Shown here in pieces: positions 21,290 to 40,644 of a stretch of DNA of 64,000 nucleotides (position 1 is the first letter of the stretch; every line of letters begins with the position of its first letter). The stretch spans positions 5,094 to 69,093 of the forward strand of contig CAZGEB010000002.1 of assembly GCA_964524915.1 (NCBI GenBank), written 5' to 3'. This stretch comes from an uncultured Candidatus Saccharibacteria bacterium. Lineage in GTDB: Bacteria; Patescibacteriota; Doudnabacteria; UBA920. Position numbers and translations under genes: made by a program. The notes beneath the pieces were generated by a model that saw only the letters and a program-made list of their open reading frames with translations, searched no databases and was not told the DNA's origin.

Positions 21290-23176
21290 TTATTTCTTCT
21301 CATCCCCACTTACATCTTTGAACTCCGCATCTACGGTTGAGTTTGAATCTGTCCCTTGAGCTGAATCTGCTGCGTTACCACTAGCCGCTTGTCCCTCGCC
21401 ACTTGTTGCTCCCTGCGCATACATAGCCGCCCCCACCTTTTGAATCGCAGCTGAAAGCTCATCAATTGCTTTTTGTATGCTAGTCGTGTCTGAGCCCTCC
21501 TTTGCAGTTTTTAAAGCTGCAACTTTGACTTCTACTTCTGCTTTGTCTTCTGCTTTGGCTTTGTCACCTGCATCCTTCAAAGTTTTTTCAGAAACCGCCA
21601 TCAAAGTATCAGCATGATTTCGCAAATCTACCAATTCTTTCCTCTTTCTATCTTCCTCTGCGTGTGCTTCTGCTTCTTTTTTCATCTTTTCTACTTCTTC
21701 TTTAGAAAGTGAAGTAGAGCCTTGGATAGTAATATTCTGCTCTTTGCCAGTTGCTTCATCCTTTGCTGTCACTTTTACAATACCACTTGCGTCTATATCA
21801 AAAGTAACTTTGATTTGTGGCACACCCCTTGGCGCTGGTGGAACACCATCCAAAACAAATCTCCCCAAAGACTTATTGTCTGCGGCAAATTCACGCTCTC
21901 CTTGCAAGACATGAATCTCTACTGAAGTTTGATTGTCCGCTGCGGTTGAAAAGACCTGTGATTTAGAAGTTGGGATAGTAGTATTGCGATCAATGATCGG
22001 AGTCCTCACCCCACCAAGTGTTTCAAGCCCGAGAGTCAAAGGAGTTACGTCCAAAAGCAAAATTTCCTTGCCTTGCACATCCCCAGATAAAATTCCCCCT
22101 TGAATAGCCGCGCCCTTGGCAACAGCTTCCATTGGATCCACACCACGCTCTACTTGTTTGCCAATAAAATCTTCCACAAATTTCTGCACAATCGGCATAC
22201 GAGTTGGACCACCAATCAAAATAATCTTATCAATATTTTGTGGAGTAAGCTTGGCATCACTTAAAGCCTGAGTAATAGGCGTACGCATTCTTTCTACTAT
22301 TGCTCTAACCAAATCTTCCAACTTTGCGCGAGTGATTTTCATCTGCAAATGCTTAGGACCTGTTGCATCTGCTGTAATAAATGGCAAATTGATTTCAGTT
22401 TCCAAAGTAGTAGAAAGCTCTATCTTGGCTTTTTCTGCGGCCTCGCGTACACGATTCATCGCCATTTTATCTTGCCCCACATCTATGCCACTTTGTCCTT
22501 TAAACTCACCAGTGATAAAATCAATCAAAGCCTTATCCATGTCTTTGCCGCCTAGAGCTGTATCTCCACTAGTAGAAAGCACTTCAAAGGTTGCCTGCCC
22601 ATCTACTTCAGAAAAATCCATTATGGTCACATCAAAAGTGCCTCCACCAAGGTCAAAAACTAATATTTTTTGATCCTTAGCAGAAGTCTTGTCCAGTCCA
22701 TAAGCAAAAGCTGCAGCAGTAGGCTCATTGATCACACGCACTACTTCTAGACCTGCAATTTCTCCAGCATTTTTAGTAGCCTGACGCTGGGCATCATCAA
22801 AATAAGCTGGCACAGTAATCACCGCTTTTTCTACTTTTTCACCCAAAAAACTTTCCGCATCTTTTTTCACCTTCTGCAAAATAAAAGCAGAAATTTGTTC
22901 GGGCGCATAGTCCTTGCCCGCAATAGTAAACTTTTCCTTGGTACCCATCTTGCGCTTCGCCTCATAGATAGTACCCTCTGGATTTGTCACTGCTTGGTTT
23001 TTTGCAGGGCCACCCACAAGCAGCTCACCATCTTTGGTAAAAGCTACGTATGATGGAAAAGCTTTTCCTCCAACTGAAGTTCCTTCAGCAGCTGGAATAA
23101 TCACAGGACTTCCCCCCTGCATAACCGCGGCTGCTGTATTTGTCGTACCCAAATCTATACCAATAATTTTACTCAT
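21290..23176 (-). CDS. dnaK: chaperone DnaK (Hsp70)
   Basis: [18 protein letters not shown], and the EKAKIELS..region; full-length Hsp70. Confidence 0.97.
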
Positions 23177-23222
23177 ATATTTTTCTCCTTGTTATTTAGA
23201 ATAATGAAGTAAGTATAAAGAA

Positions 23223-23606
23223 TTAAGAATAAAAACTTTTTGACTTTTTAATTAAACCATTAATTATTTTATGTAACTCCACTAATGTACTGCTTATATA
23301 ATTGTAATCCGTTTTAGTAATAAATCCTAAATCCCTAGAAATCATAAATTGATTTTGGACTTCGGTAACAGACCCCAAGCTGATCGCATAGAATCTCGCC
23401 TTGTCTGCATAAGTACTCCTACTAAACCCCTCCGCAATATTGGATGTTATGGAAACCGATGCCCTGCGCAACTGATTGGTCAAACCAAACATTTCGGCTT
23501 TTGGAAAAGAATTAGTTAAACGATAAACCTCCAAGACTAACTCATGACCTTTTTTCCAAGCAAGTAAATCAGTAAAATTATGAATCTTGGCTTTTTCTTC
23601 ATTCAT
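23223..23606 (-). CDS. four-helix-bundle protein (TIGR02436 family), second copy
   Basis: LLAWKKGHELVLEVYRLTNSFPKAEMFGLTNQLRRASVSITSNIAEG. Confidence 0.8.
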   Translation of the reverse strand: MNEEKAKIHNFTDLLAWKKGHELVLEVYRLTNSFPKAEMFGLTNQLRRASVSITSNIAEGFSRSTYADKARFYAISLGSVTEVQNQFMISRDLGFITKTDYNYISSTLVELHKIINGLIKKSKSFYS

Positions 23607-23643
23607 AGGGCTTTACTCTTTACTCTTACTTCTTTAATCTTGC

Positions 23644-24177
23644 TTATTTCTTCTTCCCAATCCCTACCCCACTTGGTCTGACTACTTTGCCGCCGATCAT
23701 GTAGCCAGGCACATATTCCTCCACCACCACACCATCTTCCCCGCCCTCTATTTCTTTAATAGCTTCATGGAAATTTGGATCAAACTTTTTTCCCAAAGCT
23801 TCAACTCTTTGCACTCCCAACTCTTCCAGTGCCTTATCCAACTGCTTGATTAATCCTGCAATACCATTTTTCCAGTCACTGTATTTCTCCACAAATTCTT
23901 TATTCTTTATTCTTAATTCTTCATTCTCCTCTGGCATATGCCTGAGCGCTTGCCCTAAAGAATCCAAGGAAGGCAAAAGTTTTGCCACTGCCACTTCCCT
24001 TGCAAAGTCCACCAACTCTTTACTTTTCTTTTCTTGCCCTGCTTGAAAATTTAGTAGGTCCGCCTGCGCCCGCTTCCAACCATTTAGATTTGCTTCGGCT
24101 TCCGACTTGGCCTCATCCAGTTGTTGGATTAAAGTCTTTTCTTCTTGATCGTTAGTTGTGTAATTATCATCGCTCAT
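23644..24177 (-). CDS. grpE: nucleotide exchange factor GrpE
   Basis: GWKRAQADLLNFQ..and the C-terminal beta-domain GYMIGGKVVRP. Contains an in-frame (TTATTCT)4 repeat at 23891-23918. Confidence 0.9.
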   Translation of the reverse strand: MSDDNYTTNDQEEKTLIQQLDEAKSEAEANLNGWKRAQADLLNFQAGQEKKSKELVDFAREVAVAKLLPSLDSLGQALRHMPEENEELRIKNKEFVEKYSDWKNGIAGLIKQLDKALEELGVQRVEALGKKFDPNFHEAIKEIEGGEDGVVVEEYVPGYMIGGKVVRPSGVGIGKKK

Positions 24178-31212: not shown

Positions 31213-31286
31213 TTGTCATCCCGAGCGAGGTTTTACGAGCCGAGGGATCCCTCCATTCCGCAAAGCCTCCAGTCGGGATGACACAA
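31213..31286. mobile_element. MITE-like element with TTGTCATCCCGAG / TCGGGATGACACAA terminal inverted repeats
   Basis: 11-12-bp terminal inverted repeats about 48 bp apart, immediately 3' of the GIY-YIG nuclease gene. Same terminal inverted-repeat family as 38361-38462 and 40540-40644. Confidence 0.5.
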
Positions 31287-31295
31287 GAGGAATAG

Positions 31296-31595
31296 TTACC
31301 ACTCTAGACTTAAATCTTTCCAACTAGGATTCATTTGTTTTATTAAAAATTCTTTTTTCTCCCTACGCCAACCCTTCAGTTGTTTTTCTCTGATAATGGC
31401 TGATTCAATATTTTCAGTCTCTTCAAAGAAAATCAATTTATGACAATTGTATCTTTTAGTAAATCCTTCTAGTAAATTATTTTTATGCTCGTACACTCTT
31501 CTGACTAAATCATTTGTCACACCAACATACAAAGTCCCGCTCGTACTTGCCATAATATAAACATAATAAAATCTATTTTGCATAATGCAAACCAT
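31296..31595 (-). CDS. GIY-YIG nuclease-domain protein (UPF0213-like)
   Basis: FYYVYIMASTSGTLYVGVTNDLVRRVYEHK...EKQLKGWRREKK. Confidence 0.75.
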   Translation of the reverse strand: MVCIMQNRFYYVYIMASTSGTLYVGVTNDLVRRVYEHKNNLLEGFTKRYNCHKLIFFEETENIESAIIREKQLKGWRREKKEFLIKQMNPSWKDLSLEW

Positions 31596-36117: not shown

Positions 36118-38340
36118 TTAATTATCTCTTTGTCCGTTTCCACCATGTGGTTTCCAATCAAAACCTCTTTGACCGCGGTCGTGAGGAGGGCCTTGGCGTT
36201 CTGGTGCTGGCTTTGCAAAAGGTCTGTGAGTTAAATTGATACGGCCTTGACTATCTATTTCTTGTACTTTCACTTTCAAAGTGTCGCCAATATTTACTAC
36301 ATCCTCTACACGATTTACTCTGTAATTTGCAAGCTCAGAAATATGTACCATACCATCTTGACCTGGAATCAATTCCACAAAAGCACCAAAGTTCATTATG
36401 CGTACTACTTTACCTTCAAATTCTTCACCTACTTGAATTTGGCGAGTGAGATCTTTGATCCACTTCACAGCTTTTGCATTTCCATCTTCATTGACTGAGC
36501 AAACCATTACAAGACCTGAGTCTTCTATGTCTATCTTCACACCAGTTTCAGCAATGATTTGGTTAATCACTTTGCCTCCGGGACCTATCACATCGCGAAT
36601 CTTGTCTACTGGTATATAGAAGCTGACAATGCGTGGCGCATAAGGAGACATTTCAGGGCGAGGCGCTGGCAAGGCTTCTTTCATTTTTTGAATAATGTAA
36701 AGTCTACCAGGCTTTGCTTGCTCCAGAGCTTTTGCAAGTATTTCTACTGTAAGTCCTTTGACTTTGATATCTAGCTGCAAAGCCGACACGCCTTCTTCTG
36801 AGCCTGTGACCTTGAAATCCATGTGACCATTAAAGTCTTCTATACCAGCGATATCAGTCAAAACTTTGTAATTTGAAGGATTACTTTCATCCATTACCAG
36901 ACCCATCGCCACACCACCAATAACTTTTGAAATAGGCACACCAGCGTCCATTAGCGCCAAAGAAGACCCACAAGTACTTGCCATGGAAGTGGAACCATTA
37001 CTGGCTATAGCTTCACTCACCAATCTCATGGTATAAGGGAAATCTTTTTGAGCAGGCAAAACCCCAGACGCATCCAAAGCTTTTTCAGCCAAAGCCCCGT
37101 GTCCAATTTCACGACGGCCAGGACCCCTTAGAGGTGACACTTCACCAACTGAGTAACCAGGCATGTTGTAGTGATGAATATAGCGCTTGTTTGTGCCCTC
37201 AGCTGGATCCTCTATACCATCTAGCAGCTGCTCATCGCCTTTGCTACCCAAGGTCACAACTGTCAAAACCTGAGTTTCACCGCGAGTAAATAAAGCTGAC
37301 CCATGAGTACGAGGCAAGATCCCAACTTCGCAGGAAATTTTGCGAGTCTCGTCTAGTCTTCTACCGTCTACTCTACGATCATTTTCTAATATTTGCTTTT
37401 GCTGATACTTTTTTAATATATAATCTGCGCAAAAAGTCACCTCTTTGGCAATTTTTTCTTGCTTGATAATTTCAGGTTTATCCGCAAACTCAACTGAAAT
37501 GATTTCTTCAATTTCTTTTAAGACAGCATTTATTCTCTCTTCTCTTTCAGCTTTTTCTTTCACATACACAGCAGCTTCAATTTTTTCTTCTGTCAAAAGC
37601 TCTTTTGTCCTGGCCATTATACTTTCATTTGGCAAAACAAAAGCAGCGGCAGCTTTTTCTTTGCCAATTTCGGTTCGCCACTGATTCTGCATCTCCACTA
37701 ATTCACCCAAAAACTTTTGAGCAAATTTTACACCCTCTACAATATCCACTTCACTCACCAATTCAGCACCCATCTCCACCATCAAGATGTGCTCTCCGGT
37801 ACCAGAGACCACTAAATCCATAGAAGATTTTTCTCGCTGTTCATGAGTTGGATTGACTACATATTGACCATTAATTTTTCCAACCCTCACAGCTGCCACA
37901 GGACCATCAAAAGGAATGTCAGAAATAGTCAAAGCAGTGGAAGCTGCTACCACAGCCAGCATATCTGGATCATTCTGCATGTCTACTGACAACACTGTAA
38001 CTACTACCTGCACATCATTGCGCATGCCGTAAGGAAAAAGTGGACGAAGTGTGCGATCGATCACACGCCCCGACAAAATAGCGTCATCGGTTGCCCGACC
38101 TTCACGCTTGACCCATCTACTACCCTTGATTTTGCCAGCAGCGTAAAGACGCTCTTCGTAATCCACCAAAAGTGGAAAATAATCTAAATCCCGAGGCTTG
38201 TCTGTCATTACACAAGTCGCCAAAACTACTGTATCTCCCAAACGAGCCAAAACTGCACTATTGGCCTGTAAAGCCATGCGTCCAGTTTCAAAACTCATTT
38301 TTTCTGTACCAATAATTCTTTCTATCGTTTGCACTGCCAT
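36118..38340 (-). CDS. pnp: polyribonucleotide nucleotidyltransferase (PNPase)
   Basis: Two RNase PH domains plus KH and S1 domains, with a Gly/Arg-rich tail. Start set at MAVQTIERIIG (38340). The 76 codons upstream in the ORF track lie over MITE-like repeats and are unlikely to be coding. Confidence 0.93.
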   Translation of the reverse strand: MAVQTIERIIGTEKMSFETGRMALQANSAVLARLGDTVVLATCVMTDKPRDLDYFPLLVDYEERLYAAGKIKGSRWVKREGRATDDAILSGRVIDRTLRPLFPYGMRNDVQVVVTVLSVDMQNDPDMLAVVAASTALTISDIPFDGPVAAVRVGKINGQYVVNPTHEQREKSSMDLVVSGTGEHILMVEMGAELVSEVDIVEGVKFAQKFLGELVEMQNQWRTEIGKEKAAAAFVLPNESIMARTKELLTEEKIEAAVYVKEKAEREERINAVLKEIEEIISVEFADKPEIIKQEKIAKEVTFCADYILKKYQQKQILENDRRVDGRRLDETRKISCEVGILPRTHGSALFTRGETQVLTVVTLGSKGDEQLLDGIEDPAEGTNKRYIHHYNMPGYSVGEVSPLRGPGRREIGHGALAEKALDASGVLPAQKDFPYTMRLVSEAIASNGSTSMASTCGSSLALMDAGVPISKVIGGVAMGLVMDESNPSNYKVLTDIAGIEDFNGHMDFKVTGSEEGVSALQLDIKVKGLTVEILAKALEQAKPGRLYIIQKMKEALPAPRPEMSPYAPRIVSFYIPVDKIRDVIGPGGKVINQIIAETGVKIDIEDSGLVMVCSVNEDGNAKAVKWIKDLTRQIQVGEEFEGKVVRIMNFGAFVELIPGQDGMVHISELANYRVNRVEDVVNIGDTLKVKVQEIDSQGRINLTHRPFAKPAPERQGPPHDRGQRGFDWKPHGGNGQRDN

Positions 38341-38360
38341 ATTTTTACCTTTCTTATGGT

Positions 38361-38462
38361 TTGTCATCCCAGAATTTTCTGCTTTGAGAAAATATCTGGG
38401 ACCCAGATTGGATTCCGGATCGCACTCGCCTCCGCCAGCCGGCGGACTCGTTTGTCCGGAAT
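38361..38462. mobile_element. MITE-like element (TTGTCATCCCAG...CCGGAATGACAT) in the pnp leader, containing the CTCCGCCAGCCGGCGGACTC hairpin
   Basis: Terminal inverted repeats related to the 31213 and 40540 elements. Core 38424-38443 is identical to topA 7679-7698. Confidence 0.5.
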
Positions 38463-38502
38463 GACATACCCACATGCAGTGACTTGCAAGCTCACAAAGA
38501 CA

Positions 38503-38527
38503 TTGTCTTGTCATCCCCGAGTAGTCG
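38503..38527. repeat. collapsed MITE-like hairpin TTGTCATCCCCGAG-TAG-TCGGGGAT
   Basis: Same terminal motif with arms directly abutting. Confidence 0.45.
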
Positions 38528-38587
38528 GGGATCTTTTCTTGCTTAATGAAATATGAAAATTTCCACACTCATACTTCTTAAGTAGAG

Positions 38588-38612
38588 ATTCCCGTCTTCA
38601 CGGGAATGACAT
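38588..38612. repeat. collapsed MITE-like hairpin ATTCCCG-TCTTCA-CGGGAATGACAT
   Basis: Right terminal inverted repeat CGGGAATGACAT paired with a short left arm. Confidence 0.45.
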
Positions 38613-38672
38613 GCAATAAATCTTCGTACAGTCTGCAAACCACTACAGTTAATTAATTTTTAAATAAGCTTT

Positions 38673-38957
38673 TTATCTTATAACGCCTTCATCAAACCTT
38701 TTAATAATACTTTCAAGCTTCGCAATCACATTCCTCATAACATCCTTACTTGTTGGATTAGCACCTCTTCCCAAATTTTGATTCAATTCTACAACATACT
38801 TCTTATGCAAATTAAAGGCTCTAGCGGCTCTTGAATCATTTGGCAATACCCCTTGATAAAATTCTTTTATACGAGACTCCAAAGTATCAACCAAACCATT
38901 TAAATCATTGAGAAGTTGGTCATATGTCGCCCCCCCTTCTTGTTTTTCTCCTGGCAT
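38673..38957 (-). CDS. hypothetical protein (contains a G7/C7 homopolymer near the N-terminus)
   Basis: 94-aa ORF between rpsO and pnp. C7 run at 38930-38936 encodes EGGA. Confidence 0.4.
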   Translation of the reverse strand: MPGEKQEGGATYDQLLNDLNGLVDTLESRIKEFYQGVLPNDSRAARAFNLHKKYVVELNQNLGRGANPTSKDVMRNVIAKLESIIKRFDEGVIR

Positions 38958-39022: not shown

Positions 39023-39358
39023 TTATTCAGAAACCACTACTTCACCACTTGCCACTTGAGCCGCATCTTGCTGGGCTTGACTTGCTTTGAGCAAATTTTG
39101 AAGTCCAAGTTTCTTTGCAATCTTCATTGCTCTTTCCAAACTTTCATCTTCCAAAAATCTAAAAAGTCTCCTGCGGTTACCCACCATCTTCAAAAGACCT
39201 CTTCTGGAGTGGTTGTCTTTTTTGTGCACTTTCAAATGTTCACTTACGAGACGAATTTCTTCGGTCAAGATAGCGATCTGTACCTCAGGACTACCAGTGT
39301 CTTCTCTGTGAATTCTAAATTTGCGAATAATCGCATCTTTGTCTTTTTTATCAAGCAT
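39023..39358 (-). CDS. rpsO: 30S ribosomal protein S15 with a C-terminal extension
   Basis: [28 protein letters not shown] is the S15 signature; about 20 extra C-terminal residues. Confidence 0.9.
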
Positions 39359-40539: not shown

Positions 40540-40644
40540 TTTGTCATTGCGAGGAGCGAAACTTTGTGAGCAACGAAGCAATCCAGACTGAGGACACCCT
40601 AGATTGCTTCGTCTCCGCCTAGGCGGACTTCTCGCAATGACAAG
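40540..40644. mobile_element. MITE-like element with perfect 14-bp terminal inverted repeats (CTTGTCATTGCGAG ... CTCGCAATGACAAG)
   Basis: Internal inverted repeat CGAAGCAATC/GATTGCTTCG and a CTCCGCCTAGGCGGACTTCTCGC hairpin related to the topA/pnp-leader hairpin. Lies 18 bp after the xerC stop. Confidence 0.55.

What the first reader, a model, noticed from the sequence alone, without database searches (positions are those of the whole stretch)
38341..38672. pnp leader packed with MITE-like hairpins; the ORF-track N-terminal extension of PNPase is probably not coding
The 330 bp upstream of the conserved PNPase start (MAVQTIERIIG, 38340) contain three related elements. These are a ~100-bp MITE (38361-38462, termini TTGTCATCCC.../...GGAATGACAT) and two collapsed hairpins (38503-38527 and 38588-38612). 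In E. coli the pnp leader is an RNase III-processed autoregulatory hairpin. Here the leader has acquired or been replaced by mobile hairpins, which could serve the same role or act as terminators for the upstream small gene.
Basis: partly seen in the sequence, partly recalled or inferred. Interest (0 to 1): 0.6.

Follow-up and report, generated by a model that had tools for sequence, protein, structure and literature searches.

The report
Hairpin repeats nested in pnp leader
The untranslated leader of the PNPase gene in this Doudnabacteria-like genome keeps a conserved regulatory-looking RNA hairpin, and two ~105-bp copies of a known, widespread class of hairpin repeat (NTS/dRS3-like, linked to Ssn nucleases) have been inserted into it, one exactly in the hairpin's tip; this is a tidy but fairly ordinary case, and the long N-terminal "extension" of PNPase is not coding.

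Summary
The 332-nt pnp leader holds two full ~105-bp inverted-repeat elements with the same ends (TTGTCATCCC…GGAATGACAT): A at 38361-38467 and B at 38508-38612.

The elements' terminal hairpins carry the signature GTCAT-stem-loop-stem-ATC. One is 23/28 identical to the published Neisseria NTS and is an exact dRS3. They are therefore Ssn-related-motif (SRM) hairpins arranged as inverted doublets, like NIME units. The window also encodes a single-domain GIY-YIG (Ssn-like) gene with such a doublet next to it.

The leader was not replaced. Removing A and B leaves a 120-nt leader with a 70-nt G·U-rich hairpin. A covariance model finds this hairpin just upstream of pnp in about 30 Doudnabacteria genomes, with covariation. 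B sits in its 3-nt apical loop, and A sits between its base and the ribosome-binding site.

A sister genome (16% neutral divergence) has identical lower stems, a diverged B and a different doublet in place of A. The hairpin is probably an RNase III/PNPase autoregulatory site (inferred). The 76-codon extension is non-coding.

The parts
36118..38340 (-). pnp coding sequence (740 aa PNPase) starting at the conserved ATG (MAVQTIERIIG)
   Evidence: ORF list. 66-74% aa identity to Doudnabacteria PNPases from residue 1. 98.8% aa identity to sister genome L088.
38341..38568 (-). Spurious 76-codon N-terminal extension of the mechanical ORF (GTG at 38568); non-coding leader
   Evidence: The start lies inside element B. 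The extension is not conserved: L088 has an in-frame stop 14 codons upstream, and relatives have stops 0-43 codons upstream.
38348..38353 (-). Ribosome-binding site GAAAGG, 7 nt before the ATG
   Evidence: Read from the sequence. Identical in L088. Relatives carry AAAGGA at the same distance.
38361..38467 (.). Element A: 107-bp inverted doublet of SRM-like hairpins (TTGTCATCCCAGA…TCCGGAATGACAT), inserted between the base of the native hairpin and the RBS
   Evidence: No strand asymmetry in folding (-46.7 sense, -46.5 antisense). Absent from L088, which has a TTGCGAG-type doublet there. Four SNPs in strain L087, including a compensatory pair.
38472..38507 (-). 3' arm of the native pnp-leader hairpin
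   Evidence: Pairs with 38613-38648. Covariance-model hit 38472-38648, 39.7 bits, E = 2.5e-7. 27 nt are identical in L088.
38508..38612 (.). Element B: 105-bp inverted doublet of SRM hairpins, inserted in the 3-nt apical loop of the native hairpin
   Evidence: Its 5' hairpin on the minus strand (38611-38584) is TGTCATTCCCGTGAAGACGGGAATCTCT: 23/28 to the NTS consensus, an exact dRS3, and a match to the published SRM pattern. The orthologous copy in L088 is 82% identical with stem-preserving changes.
38613..38648 (-). 5' arm of the native pnp-leader hairpin
   Evidence: As for the 3' arm. After removing B the hairpin folds at -32.1 (sense) against -18.7 kcal/mol (antisense).
38649..38672 (-). 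AT-rich spacer after the ORF94 stop codon; the last 13 nt (AAAATTAATTAAC, 38660-38648, running 1 nt into the 5' arm) are identical in L088; possible promoter region (not shown)
   Evidence: No sigma-70 consensus match was found there.
38673..38957 (-). ORF94, a small orphan ORF between rpsO and pnp
   Evidence: Only itself found in the 5.8 billion-protein search. 38% aa identity to the 100-aa ORF at the same place in L088.
39023..39358 (-). rpsO (ribosomal protein S15); a terminator-like hairpin follows at 39013-38992
   Evidence: Pfam Ribosomal_S15 on the identical protein. Terminator scan.
31296..31595 (-). Single-domain GIY-YIG nuclease gene (Ssn-like; 95 aa from MQNRFYYVYIM)
   Evidence: Pfam PF01541, E = 1.2e-15. 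At least 7928 relatives of ~95 aa with E <= 1e-10.
31213..31284 (.). 72-bp SRM-like doublet 11 nt downstream of the GIY-YIG gene
   Evidence: Conserved next to the orthologous gene in sister contig L210.
40541..40643 (.). 103-bp doublet of the TTGTCATTGCGAG…CTCGCAATGACAA subtype, between convergent xerC-like and dedA genes
   Evidence: Absent from the same spacer in L088. 71% similar to the doublet that occupies the A position in L088's pnp leader.

Best explanation
**Gene order and native leader**
The minus strand reads rpsO, a small orphan ORF, a 332-nt leader, then pnp. The leader has a native core of about 120 nt. That core contains a 70-nt imperfect, G·U-rich stem-loop directly upstream of the pnp ribosome-binding site. 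The stem-loop is a conserved RNA motif of Doudnabacteria pnp leaders.

**Likely role of the hairpin (inferred)**
By analogy with E. coli and Streptomyces, it is most likely the double-stranded entry site for RNase III in PNPase autoregulation. This step is inferred, not shown.

**The two insertions**
Two ~105-bp DNA repeats have been inserted into the leader. Each is an inverted doublet of hairpins of the NTS/dRS3/'Ssn-related motif' class (GTCAT-stem-loop-stem-ATC). This class is associated with small GIY-YIG single-stranded-DNA nucleases, and the window encodes one such gene with a doublet beside it.
- Element B lies exactly in the apical loop of the native hairpin. It prolongs the hairpin into a ~177-nt rod.
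- Element A lies in the ~20-nt linker between the hairpin base and the RBS.

**Why they persist there**
Both positions are places where extra hairpins are tolerated, and relatives carry other expansions at the same two places. The elements behave as DNA-level selfish or neutral passengers that are transcribed as part of the pnp mRNA. They are neither replacements of the regulator nor terminators.

**The ORF extension**
The 816-aa ORF is an artefact of an open frame running through these repeats. PNPase starts at 38340.
For: **Anatomy of the elements**
- There are two elements with identical ends, each with two terminal hairpins.
- The B 5' hairpin is 23/28 identical to the NTS consensus, and two of the mismatches form a compensatory stem pair. 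It fits dRS3 (ATTCCC N8 GGGAAT) exactly.
- It is the only match in the window to the published SRM pattern, against 0.15 expected in shuffles (PMC11893778).
- The dRS3-RS-dRS3 unit architecture is that of NIMEs (PMC1797815).
- The GIY-YIG gene at 31296-31595 has an adjacent doublet, and this pairing is conserved in the sister contig L210.

**The native hairpin**
- Deleting A and B leaves a hairpin of -32.1 kcal/mol on the sense strand against -18.7 on the antisense strand. B's junction falls in its 3-nt loop.
- A and B themselves show no strand asymmetry.
- In a 7-sequence alignment, 11 of 18 pairs show compensatory changes. 94.3% of cells are paired against 76.3% in shuffles, and 36-45% when partners are slid.
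- The covariance model hits window 38472-38648 (E = 2.5e-7, with B as a loop insertion) and L088. It also hits 23 relatives that were not in the seed, always on the sense strand and 13-110 nt before the pnp ATG.
- In 29 of 32 relatives the leader folds better on the sense strand than on the antisense strand.

**Selection**
- Against L088, 43 + 27 nt of the lower stem and its upstream flank show 0 differences, while four-fold sites differ at 16.4% (81/494). The chance of that is P ~ 3.6e-6.
- B is 82% identical plus indels, which is about the neutral rate. A is replaced by another doublet.

**Leader length and tolerated sites**
- Relatives' leaders are 105-275 nt, and the window minus A and B is 120 nt.
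- Apex length varies from 66 to 157 nt among relatives.

**Published analogy**
RNase III cleavage of a long stem-loop in the pnp leader triggers PNPase-dependent decay in E. coli (PMC5029454). The same holds in S. coelicolor (PMC10126417).

**The extension**.
Against: - No transcript data exist. The promoter, the 5' ends and RNase III cleavage are all unobserved.
- No RNase III gene lies in the 64-kb window (signature search), so its presence in the genome is assumed.
- Only one of the eight terminal hairpins matches the published SRM pattern strictly. The others share the GTCAT…ATC flanks but have longer or variant stem-loops.
- Homology of the GIY-YIG protein to N. meningitidis SsnA itself was not tested.
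- B has been kept at the same site in two lineages with hairpin-preserving substitutions, and the A position is occupied in both. This could also mean the elements contribute to function.
Confidence: 0.7

Rival explanations
1. The inserted doublets have been co-opted. By lengthening the double-stranded rod (B) and adding hairpins before the RBS (A), they provide extra RNase III substrate or stabilising structure. On this view they are now functional parts of pnp regulation.
For: - B is retained at the same apical site in the window and in L088, with stem-preserving (compensatory) substitutions in both terminal hairpins.
- The A position is occupied by a doublet in both genomes.
- The whole leader folds into a very stable structure, z = -9.2.
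Against: - B diverges at about the neutral rate (18% plus indels against 16.4%), whereas the native stem shows 0/70 differences.
- A and B show no sense/antisense asymmetry, unlike the native stem.
- A is exchanged for an unrelated family member in L088.
- About 30 relatives do without such doublets.
- Hairpin preservation is equally expected from DNA-level constraints on SRM hairpins.
Confidence: 0.15
2. The hairpins act as transcription terminators for rpsO or the small upstream ORF.
For: They are stable GC-containing hairpins directly downstream of ORF94. One weak terminator-like site lies on the sense strand inside A, at 38408-38394.
Against: - None of the four terminal hairpins is followed by a U-run on the sense strand. 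The best terminator-like matches are on the antisense strand.
- Only 20 nt separate A from the pnp start codon, so pnp must be transcribed through A.
- The conserved native hairpin upstream of A would be pointless if transcription stopped or restarted there.
- rpsO has its own terminator-like hairpin at 39013-38992.
Confidence: 0.05
3. The whole ~177-bp palindrome (38472-38648) is one larger mobile element. On this view the outer stem belongs to the repeat and is not a native leader hairpin.
For: The inverted repeat extends about 36 nt beyond B on each side and forms one continuous rod.
Against: - The outer arms align and co-vary with the pnp-leader hairpins of relatives that lack B.
- They are strongly strand-asymmetric, with G·U pairs on the sense strand only.
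- They are perfectly conserved with L088 while B has diverged.
- No other copy of the arms exists in the window or in the loci searched.
Confidence: 0.03
4. PNPase really starts at GTG 38568, and the repeats encode a lineage-specific N-terminal extension.
For: There is an open frame of 76 codons upstream of the ATG. Gene callers on identical contigs produced 798-aa products.
Against: - The extension is closed by a stop 14 codons upstream in L088, whose PNPase is 98.8% identical.
- No relative has a comparable extension.
- The conserved RBS lies in front of ATG 38340.
- The extension consists of palindromic repeat sequence.
Confidence: 0.02

Closest known systems
NTS / Ssn-related motifs (SRM) associated with Ssn GIY-YIG single-stranded-DNA nucleases (Nat Commun 2025, PMC11893778)
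   Same: - The hairpin repeat has the oriented signature GTCAT + palindrome + ATC. The B 5' hairpin is 23/28 identical to CGTCATTCCCGCGMAVGCGGGAATCYRG and matches the degenerate SRM pattern.
- The copies are intergenic and multi-copy.
- The genome encodes a ~95-aa single-domain GIY-YIG protein with such a repeat directly beside it.
   Different: - The host is a Patescibacteria/CPR (Doudnabacteria-like) genome, a group the paper does not mention.
- The hairpins occur as ~70-107-bp inverted doublets that look like MITEs, an arrangement the paper does not describe.
- Most ends have longer loops or stems than the published pattern allows.
- Nuclease activity, and homology to N. meningitidis SsnA itself, were not tested.
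Neisseria intergenic mosaic elements (NIME: dRS3-RS-dRS3 units; PMC1797815)
   Same: - Two inverted dRS3-type 20-bp hairpins (ATTCCC N8 GGGAAT is exact in B) flank a 45-60-bp lower-GC spacer.
- Units stand in tandem in intergenic DNA.
- An adjacent gene (ORF94) is unusually divergent between close genomes, as reported for NIME-flanked genes.
   Different: - This is not Neisseria.
- There are only two units here, not long arrays.
- Only one of the four hairpins in A and B fits the strict dRS3 consensus.
- No dRS3-targeting phage recombinase is in evidence.
REPINs (REP doublets forming hairpins) mobilised by RAYT transposases, and classical MITEs
   Same: The size is ~100 bp, with terminal inverted repeats. 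The whole element can fold into one long hairpin. The location is intergenic, and presence/absence differs between close genomes.
   Different: - There is no target-site duplication.
- There is no GTAG head as in REPs.
- No Y1 (RAYT) or other transposase was identified. The associated gene is a GIY-YIG nuclease instead.
E. coli / Streptomyces rpsO-pnp intergenic hairpin (RNase III-dependent PNPase autoregulation; PMC5029454, PMC10126417)
   Same: A long imperfect stem-loop lies in the pnp leader, downstream of rpsO and just upstream of the pnp ribosome-binding site. Here it is conserved and co-varying within the lineage.
   Different: - No sequence similarity is shown, and no Rfam family matches.
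- An extra small ORF lies between rpsO and pnp.
- Cleavage and autoregulation are untested in any CPR organism.
- The hairpin carries a 105-nt repeat in its loop.

Membership tests
Ssn-related motif (SRM/NTS) hairpin repeats | Oriented sequence signature: GTCAT, then a palindromic stem-loop, then ATC (NTS consensus CGTCATTCCCGCGMAVGCGGGAATCYRG; degenerate SRM pattern of PMC11893778) | tested here: met
   The B 5' hairpin (38611-38584, minus strand) is 23/28 identical to NTS, and 2 of the mismatches form a compensatory pair. It matches the SRM regular expression: 1 hit in the window against 0.15 in shuffles.
Ssn-related motif (SRM/NTS) hairpin repeats | The same signature at the other seven terminal hairpins (A, B 3' end, 31213-31284, 40541-40643) | tested here: inconclusive
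   All seven have TGTCAT + stem…stem + A(T/C)C flanks. Their loops and stems are longer than the published pattern allows, so the regular expression does not match them. Among metagenome doublets, only 22 of 117 strand-entries match at one or both ends.
Ssn-related motif (SRM/NTS) hairpin repeats | Multi-copy and intergenic | tested here: met
   There are four doublets (eight hairpins) in 64 kb, all between genes. GGGATGACA occurs 4 times against 0.40 expected.
Ssn-related motif (SRM/NTS) hairpin repeats | The genome encodes a small single-domain GIY-YIG protein (Ssn, cd10448) flanked by the motif | tested here: met
   The 31296-31595 gene matches PF01541 at E = 1.2e-15 and has no other domain. 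A doublet lies 11 nt downstream, and this is conserved in sister contig L210.
Ssn-related motif (SRM/NTS) hairpin repeats | The cognate nuclease binds and cuts the motif as single-stranded DNA | not testable with these tools
   This needs a biochemical assay.
NIME (Neisseria intergenic mosaic element) | 20-bp dRS3 repeats ATTCCC N8 GGGAAT flanking a 50-150-bp RS element | tested here: inconclusive
   dRS3 is exact at 38588-38607. The other three hairpins of A and B are variants (ATCCCC…GGGGAT, TTCCGGA…TCCGGAA, CCCAGA…TCTGGG). The spacers are ~45-60 bp.
NIME (Neisseria intergenic mosaic element) | Restricted to the genus Neisseria (as defined in 2007) | tested here: not met
   The host is Doudnabacteria-like: PNPase is 66-74% identical to Doudnabacteria MAGs.
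Classical MITE | Terminal inverted repeats | tested here: met
   The termini TTGTCATCCC and GGAATGACAT (reverse complement ATGTCATTCC) are mutually inverted; 10-13 of the terminal 14 nt are complementary in each of the four elements.
Classical MITE | Target-site duplication flanking the element | tested here: not met
   The flanks of A, B, 31213-31284, 40541-40643 and the L088 copies show no direct repeat.
Classical MITE | A related autonomous insertion sequence with matching ends and a transposase | not tested
   Only 64 kb was available. No systematic transposase scan of the window was done.
REPIN / RAYT system | A doublet of inverted REP hairpins, plus a RAYT (Y1 transposase) gene flanked by REPs, and a conserved GTAG head | tested here: inconclusive
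   The doublet architecture is met. The conserved head here is GTCAT, not GTAG. RAYT was not searched for. The flanked gene is a GIY-YIG gene.
PNPase autoregulatory leader hairpin (E. coli / Streptomyces type) | A long imperfect stem-loop in the pnp leader, between rpsO and the pnp ribosome-binding site | tested here: met
   The arms are 38613-38648 and 38472-38507. The reconstructed hairpin is 70 nt and folds at -32.1 kcal/mol. The same position is found in relatives.
PNPase autoregulatory leader hairpin (E. coli / Streptomyces type) | Evolutionary conservation as an RNA structure (covariation, strand specificity) | tested here: met
   11 of 18 pairs show compensatory changes, and 0 of 500 shuffles reach the observed score. 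Sense-strand hits occur in about 30 genomes. There are 0/70 differences from L088 against 16.4% neutral divergence.
PNPase autoregulatory leader hairpin (E. coli / Streptomyces type) | Cleavage by RNase III and PNPase-dependent decay of the processed mRNA | not testable with these tools
   This needs RNA 5'-end mapping or in vitro cleavage. No rnc signature was found within the window itself.

The most novel reading that the evidence does not exclude
The apical loop and the base-to-RBS linker of the Doudnabacteria pnp-leader hairpin may be evolutionary 'docking sites'. Ssn-associated hairpin doublets and other palindromes are captured there repeatedly and then tune PNPase autoregulation, for example by lengthening the RNase III substrate.

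Alternatively, as proposed for Neisseria NIME arrays, the doublets may act as recombination or ssDNA-cleavage hot spots. That could drive the extreme divergence of the adjacent small ORF: ORF94 is 38% identical to its counterpart, while its neighbours are 97-100% identical. This would extend an Ssn/NTS-type genome-dynamics system to a CPR bacterium.
Probability: 0.12. Interest if true: 0.65.

Novelty: new member of a known kind. Interest (0 to 1): 0.4.

Why it matters
**Annotation.** PNPase in this genome, and in identical metagenome contigs, is over-called by 58-76 codons because palindromic repeats happen to be open in frame.

**Repeat biology.** The hairpin repeats recently tied to Ssn single-stranded-DNA nucleases occur in Patescibacteria. 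They are often organised as ~100-bp inverted doublets that look like MITEs. That architecture is found in metagenome contigs of 31-72% GC.

**RNA regulation.** A conserved, co-varying hairpin upstream of pnp in about 30 Doudnabacteria genomes is a candidate cis-regulatory motif that is not in Rfam. This suggests that RNase III/PNPase-type autoregulation extends to the candidate phyla radiation.

**Tolerance of insertions.** The nested insertion is a natural experiment. It shows which parts of that hairpin tolerate change (the apex and the linker) and which do not (the lower stem).

Tried and rejected
- **Rfam, whole window at gathering thresholds.** Only six tRNAs were found.
- **Rfam, permissive scans of the leader and of an insertion-free relative (L004).** Only sub-threshold miRNA-precursor-like hits to generic long hairpins appeared. 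No known family matched.
- **Literature search for the repeat sequence GTCATTGCGAG and for MITEs in the candidate phyla radiation.** Nothing relevant turned up. A second search with six end sequences led to the Ssn paper.
- **Homology of ORF94 to the ~130-aa ORF that relatives carry between rpsO and pnp.** tblastn found none and the alignment was not convincing. Neither ORF has a Pfam or NCBIfam match.
- **Do doublets generally insert into palindromic contexts?** Such a preference would explain B's apical position. Flank complementarity in the 117 extracted metagenome doublet entries (some doublets counted once per strand) is 0.368 against 0.342 +/- 0.015 in shuffled pairings, which is not convincing. 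Selective tolerance of the apex is therefore preferred.
- **Association of metagenome doublets with GIY-YIG genes on the same short contigs.** Only 1 of 80 loci (L133) shows it. This is uninformative, because dispersed copies are expected to lie far from the gene.
- **Excess of strain-level SNPs in A.** Four of the leader differences in L087 fall in A, but the contig end is noisy, so no weight is placed on the statistic.
- **RNase III signature in the window.** None was found.
- **Supplementary data of the Ssn paper**, wanted for the SsnA sequence, are not held.
Full report
**1. What is in the sequence**

On the minus strand the gene order is as follows:
- rpsO (39358-39023);
- a 94-codon ORF (38957-38673);
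- a 332-nt leader (38672-38341);
- pnp, whose conserved start MAVQTIERIIG is the ATG at 38340.

The mechanical ORF runs 76 codons further upstream, to a GTG at 38568.

Repeat analysis shows that TTGTCATCCC(A/C)GA occurs at 38361 and 38508, and GGAATGACAT ends at 38467 and 38612. Inverted repeats join each such pair. The leader therefore holds two complete elements with the same termini:
- A, 38361-38467, 107 bp;
- B, 38508-38612, 105 bp.

Two more elements with TTGTCAT…ATGACA ends lie elsewhere in the window, at 31213-31284 and 40541-40643. The end motif GGGATGACA occurs 4 times against 0.40 expected. The leader RNA folds at -129 kcal/mol, z = -9.2.

**2. What organism, and what relatives look like**

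PNPase is 66-74% identical to PNPases of Candidatus Doudnabacteria and other Patescibacteria MAGs.

In 33 relatives where rpsO lies upstream:
- most have a conserved ~130-aa ORF between rpsO and pnp;
- the pnp leader is 105-275 nt;
- none has TGTCAT-ended pairs in the leader.

Every relative's leader ends in a long imperfect hairpin just before an AAAGGA ribosome-binding site. In 29 of 32 the sense strand folds better than the antisense strand, which is the mark of G·U pairs and hence of an RNA-level structure.

**3. A native hairpin survives, and B sits in its tip**

Folding shows that B's flanks (38613-38648 and 38472-38507) pair with each other. Deleting A and B in silico leaves a 120-nt leader. 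Its core is a 70-nt hairpin that folds at -32.1 kcal/mol on the sense strand against -18.7 on the antisense strand. B's junction lies inside its 3-nt apical loop. A and B themselves are symmetric (-46.7/-46.5 and -43.3/-41.8), as expected for DNA palindromes.

The arms align with the hairpins of relatives, with the consensus GCAGAUnnnCGAAGACU…AGUCUCGUnCAUUUGC. On seven sequences:
- 11 of 18 pairs show compensatory changes;
- 94.3% of cells are paired, against 76.3% in shuffles and 36-45% when partners are slid.

A covariance model built from that alignment used the window only in its reconstructed form. It finds:
- the real window at 38472-38648 on the minus strand (39.7 bits, E = 2.5e-7, full model, with B as a loop insertion);
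- the sister genome L088;
- 23 further relatives that were not in the seed.

All these hits are on the sense strand and end 13-110 nt before the pnp ATG.

Apex length varies from 66 to 157 nt among relatives. Some relatives also carry extra hairpins between the base and the RBS. So the two places where A and B sit are the variable places of this motif. No Rfam family matches it.

**4. Close relatives show which parts are constrained and that the elements move**

Exact-protein look-ups recovered the same population from several metagenomes, at 99-100% identity and with the same A and B.

They also recovered a sister genome, L088, with these values:

| Comparison with L088 | Value |
|---|---|
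| S15 identity | 100% |
| PNPase identity | 98.8% |
| Divergence at four-fold sites | 16.4% (81/494) |

In L088's leader:
- the AT-rich flank plus lower 5' arm (43 nt) and the lower 3' arm (27 nt) are identical to the window; the chance of no change at the neutral rate is about 3.6e-6;
- the RBS region is also identical;
- B is present at the same apical site but is only 82% identical, with indels and stem-preserving double changes such as TTCCCG…CGGGAA to TTCCGG…CCGGAA;
- A is absent, and a TTGTCATTGCGAG…CTCGCAATGACA doublet sits in its place.

That replacement doublet is 71% similar to the window's 40541-40643 element. The 40541-40643 element is in turn missing from L088's dedA-xerC spacer.

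A second sister contig, L210, keeps the doublet next to the GIY-YIG gene. It has a further doublet between grpE and dnaK that the window lacks.

The elements therefore turn over on the time-scale of about 16% neutral divergence, while the lower stem is under strong purifying selection.

**5. What the elements are**

A literature search with the end sequences led to the description of the Ssn nuclease family (PMC11893778). That paper defines:
- the Neisseria Transformation Sequence, CGTCATTCCCGCGMAVGCGGGAATCYRG;
- the dRS3 repeat it encloses, ATTCCC N8 GGGAAT;
- a broader 'Ssn-related motif' (SRM), found across phyla next to small single-domain GIY-YIG genes whose products cut the motif as single-stranded DNA.

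B's 5' hairpin on the minus strand is TGTCATTCCCGTGAAGACGGGAATCTCT. It is 23/28 identical to NTS, and two of the mismatches form a compensatory stem pair. It is an exact dRS3. It is also the only match in the window to the paper's degenerate SRM pattern, against 0.15 expected.

The other seven terminal hairpins share the GTCAT…stem…A(T/C)C frame but have longer loops or stems. They fall outside that pattern.

The window encodes a 95-99-aa single-domain GIY-YIG protein at 31296-31595 (PF01541, E = 1.2e-15). The 31213-31284 doublet lies 11 nt downstream of it. The protein belongs to a family of at least 7928 proteins of ~95 aa, which includes other Patescibacteria.

Each of A and B is thus a dRS3-spacer-dRS3 unit, the architecture of Neisseria NIMEs (PMC1797815), and resembles a REPIN-type doublet.

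A capped scan of public metagenomes for TTGTCATYCC-N70-100-GGRATGACA returned at least 120 stretches. The contigs range from 31 to 72% GC, and many ends are exact NTS sequences. The Ssn paper mentions neither Patescibacteria nor doublets.

No target-site duplication and no transposase were seen, so 'MITE' describes the look rather than a demonstrated mechanism.

**6. How it most likely works**

Shown:
- the conserved sense-strand hairpin;
- its position relative to the RBS;
- the nested and adjacent insertions;
- their turnover.

Inferred: the hairpin is the RNase III entry site of PNPase autoregulation. In E. coli, RNase III cuts a long stem-loop in the pnp leader and PNPase then triggers decay of the processed message (PMC5029454). 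The same logic holds in S. coelicolor (PMC10126417).

B prolongs the helix at its tip, and A lengthens the linker. Both are transcribed with pnp, because there is no room for a promoter between A and the start codon.

They are probably tolerated passengers, for three reasons:
- B evolves at about the neutral rate;
- neither element shows strand asymmetry;
- about 30 relatives do without them.

They are unlikely to be terminators. No U-runs follow the hairpins on the sense strand, and only one weak site inside A was scored.

No general preference of doublets for palindromic targets was detected. Selective tolerance of the apex is therefore the better explanation for B's position.

**7. The N-terminal extension**

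- The extension begins inside B and consists of repeat and stem sequence.
- L088 closes the frame 14 codons upstream.
- In 38 of 53 relatives the aligned position is an ATG preceded by an AAGG-type RBS.
- In-frame stops lie 0-43 codons upstream in relatives.

PNPase starts at 38340.

**8. Verdict**

It is wrong about replacement of the leader and about terminators.

The elements belong to a known class (NTS/dRS3/SRM) and appear here in a new host group and in doublet form. The conserved Doudnabacteria pnp-leader hairpin is an undescribed member of a known regulatory theme.

Interest is moderate.

Noticed in passing
window 38673-38957 (-); L088 2453-2755: The small ORF between rpsO and pnp is an orphan. 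It finds only itself among 5.8 billion proteins. It is only 38% identical to the 100-aa ORF at the same place in the sister genome, although the neighbouring proteins are 97-100% identical. It lies next to the hairpin-repeat doublets, which recalls the raised divergence of NIME-flanked genes in Neisseria.
   Followed up: partly
L002-L052, between rpsO and pnp (e.g. L005 3410-3823): Most Doudnabacteria relatives carry a conserved ~130-aa ORF (motif HLLFGSTPDP…FL) between rpsO and pnp. It has no Pfam match, and the window lineage has the unrelated ORF94 instead.
   Followed up: partly
L015 402-558; L036, L037, L040, L042, L052 leaders: Other relatives have ~90-110-nt expansions in the apex of their pnp-leader hairpins. 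These are rod-like or branched and lack TGTCAT ends. The hairpin tip therefore seems to be a recurrent site of growth, whatever the element type.
   Followed up: partly
window 31000-30309, 29042-28543, 26157-25659, 23651-23170 versus L210: Between this genome and its sister (~93-96% nucleotide identity in conserved genes), several short stretches holding small ORFs are not alignable at all. This suggests frequent replacement of small genes between conserved neighbours.
   Followed up: no
L210 8682-8766: The sister genome has an additional TTGTCATCCCGTG…GGAATGACAG doublet between grpE and dnaK. The window (23170-23651) has none there.
   Followed up: partly
L053 3292-3567: A Margulisiibacteriota genome has a homolog of the small GIY-YIG protein (46% identity) immediately upstream of its rpsO-pnp pair.
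   Followed up: no
window 39023-39358 (-): S15 is 111 aa here, and most relatives align only to residues 1-87. The C-terminal ~24 residues (…[18 protein letters not shown]) are a lineage-variable tail.
   Followed up: no
window 38399 and 38402 versus L087: A 99%-identical strain differs from the window at four positions inside element A. These include a double change (GGGTCCC to GGATCTC) that preserves a small internal palindrome.
   Followed up: partly
L004 3805-3889; L022, L033, L034 leaders: Relatives have a near-perfect long palindrome upstream of the native hairpin. It is terminator-like and follows the upstream ORF. In L004 it gives sub-threshold hits to miRNA-precursor models. The window has no such separate hairpin after ORF94.
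   Followed up: no
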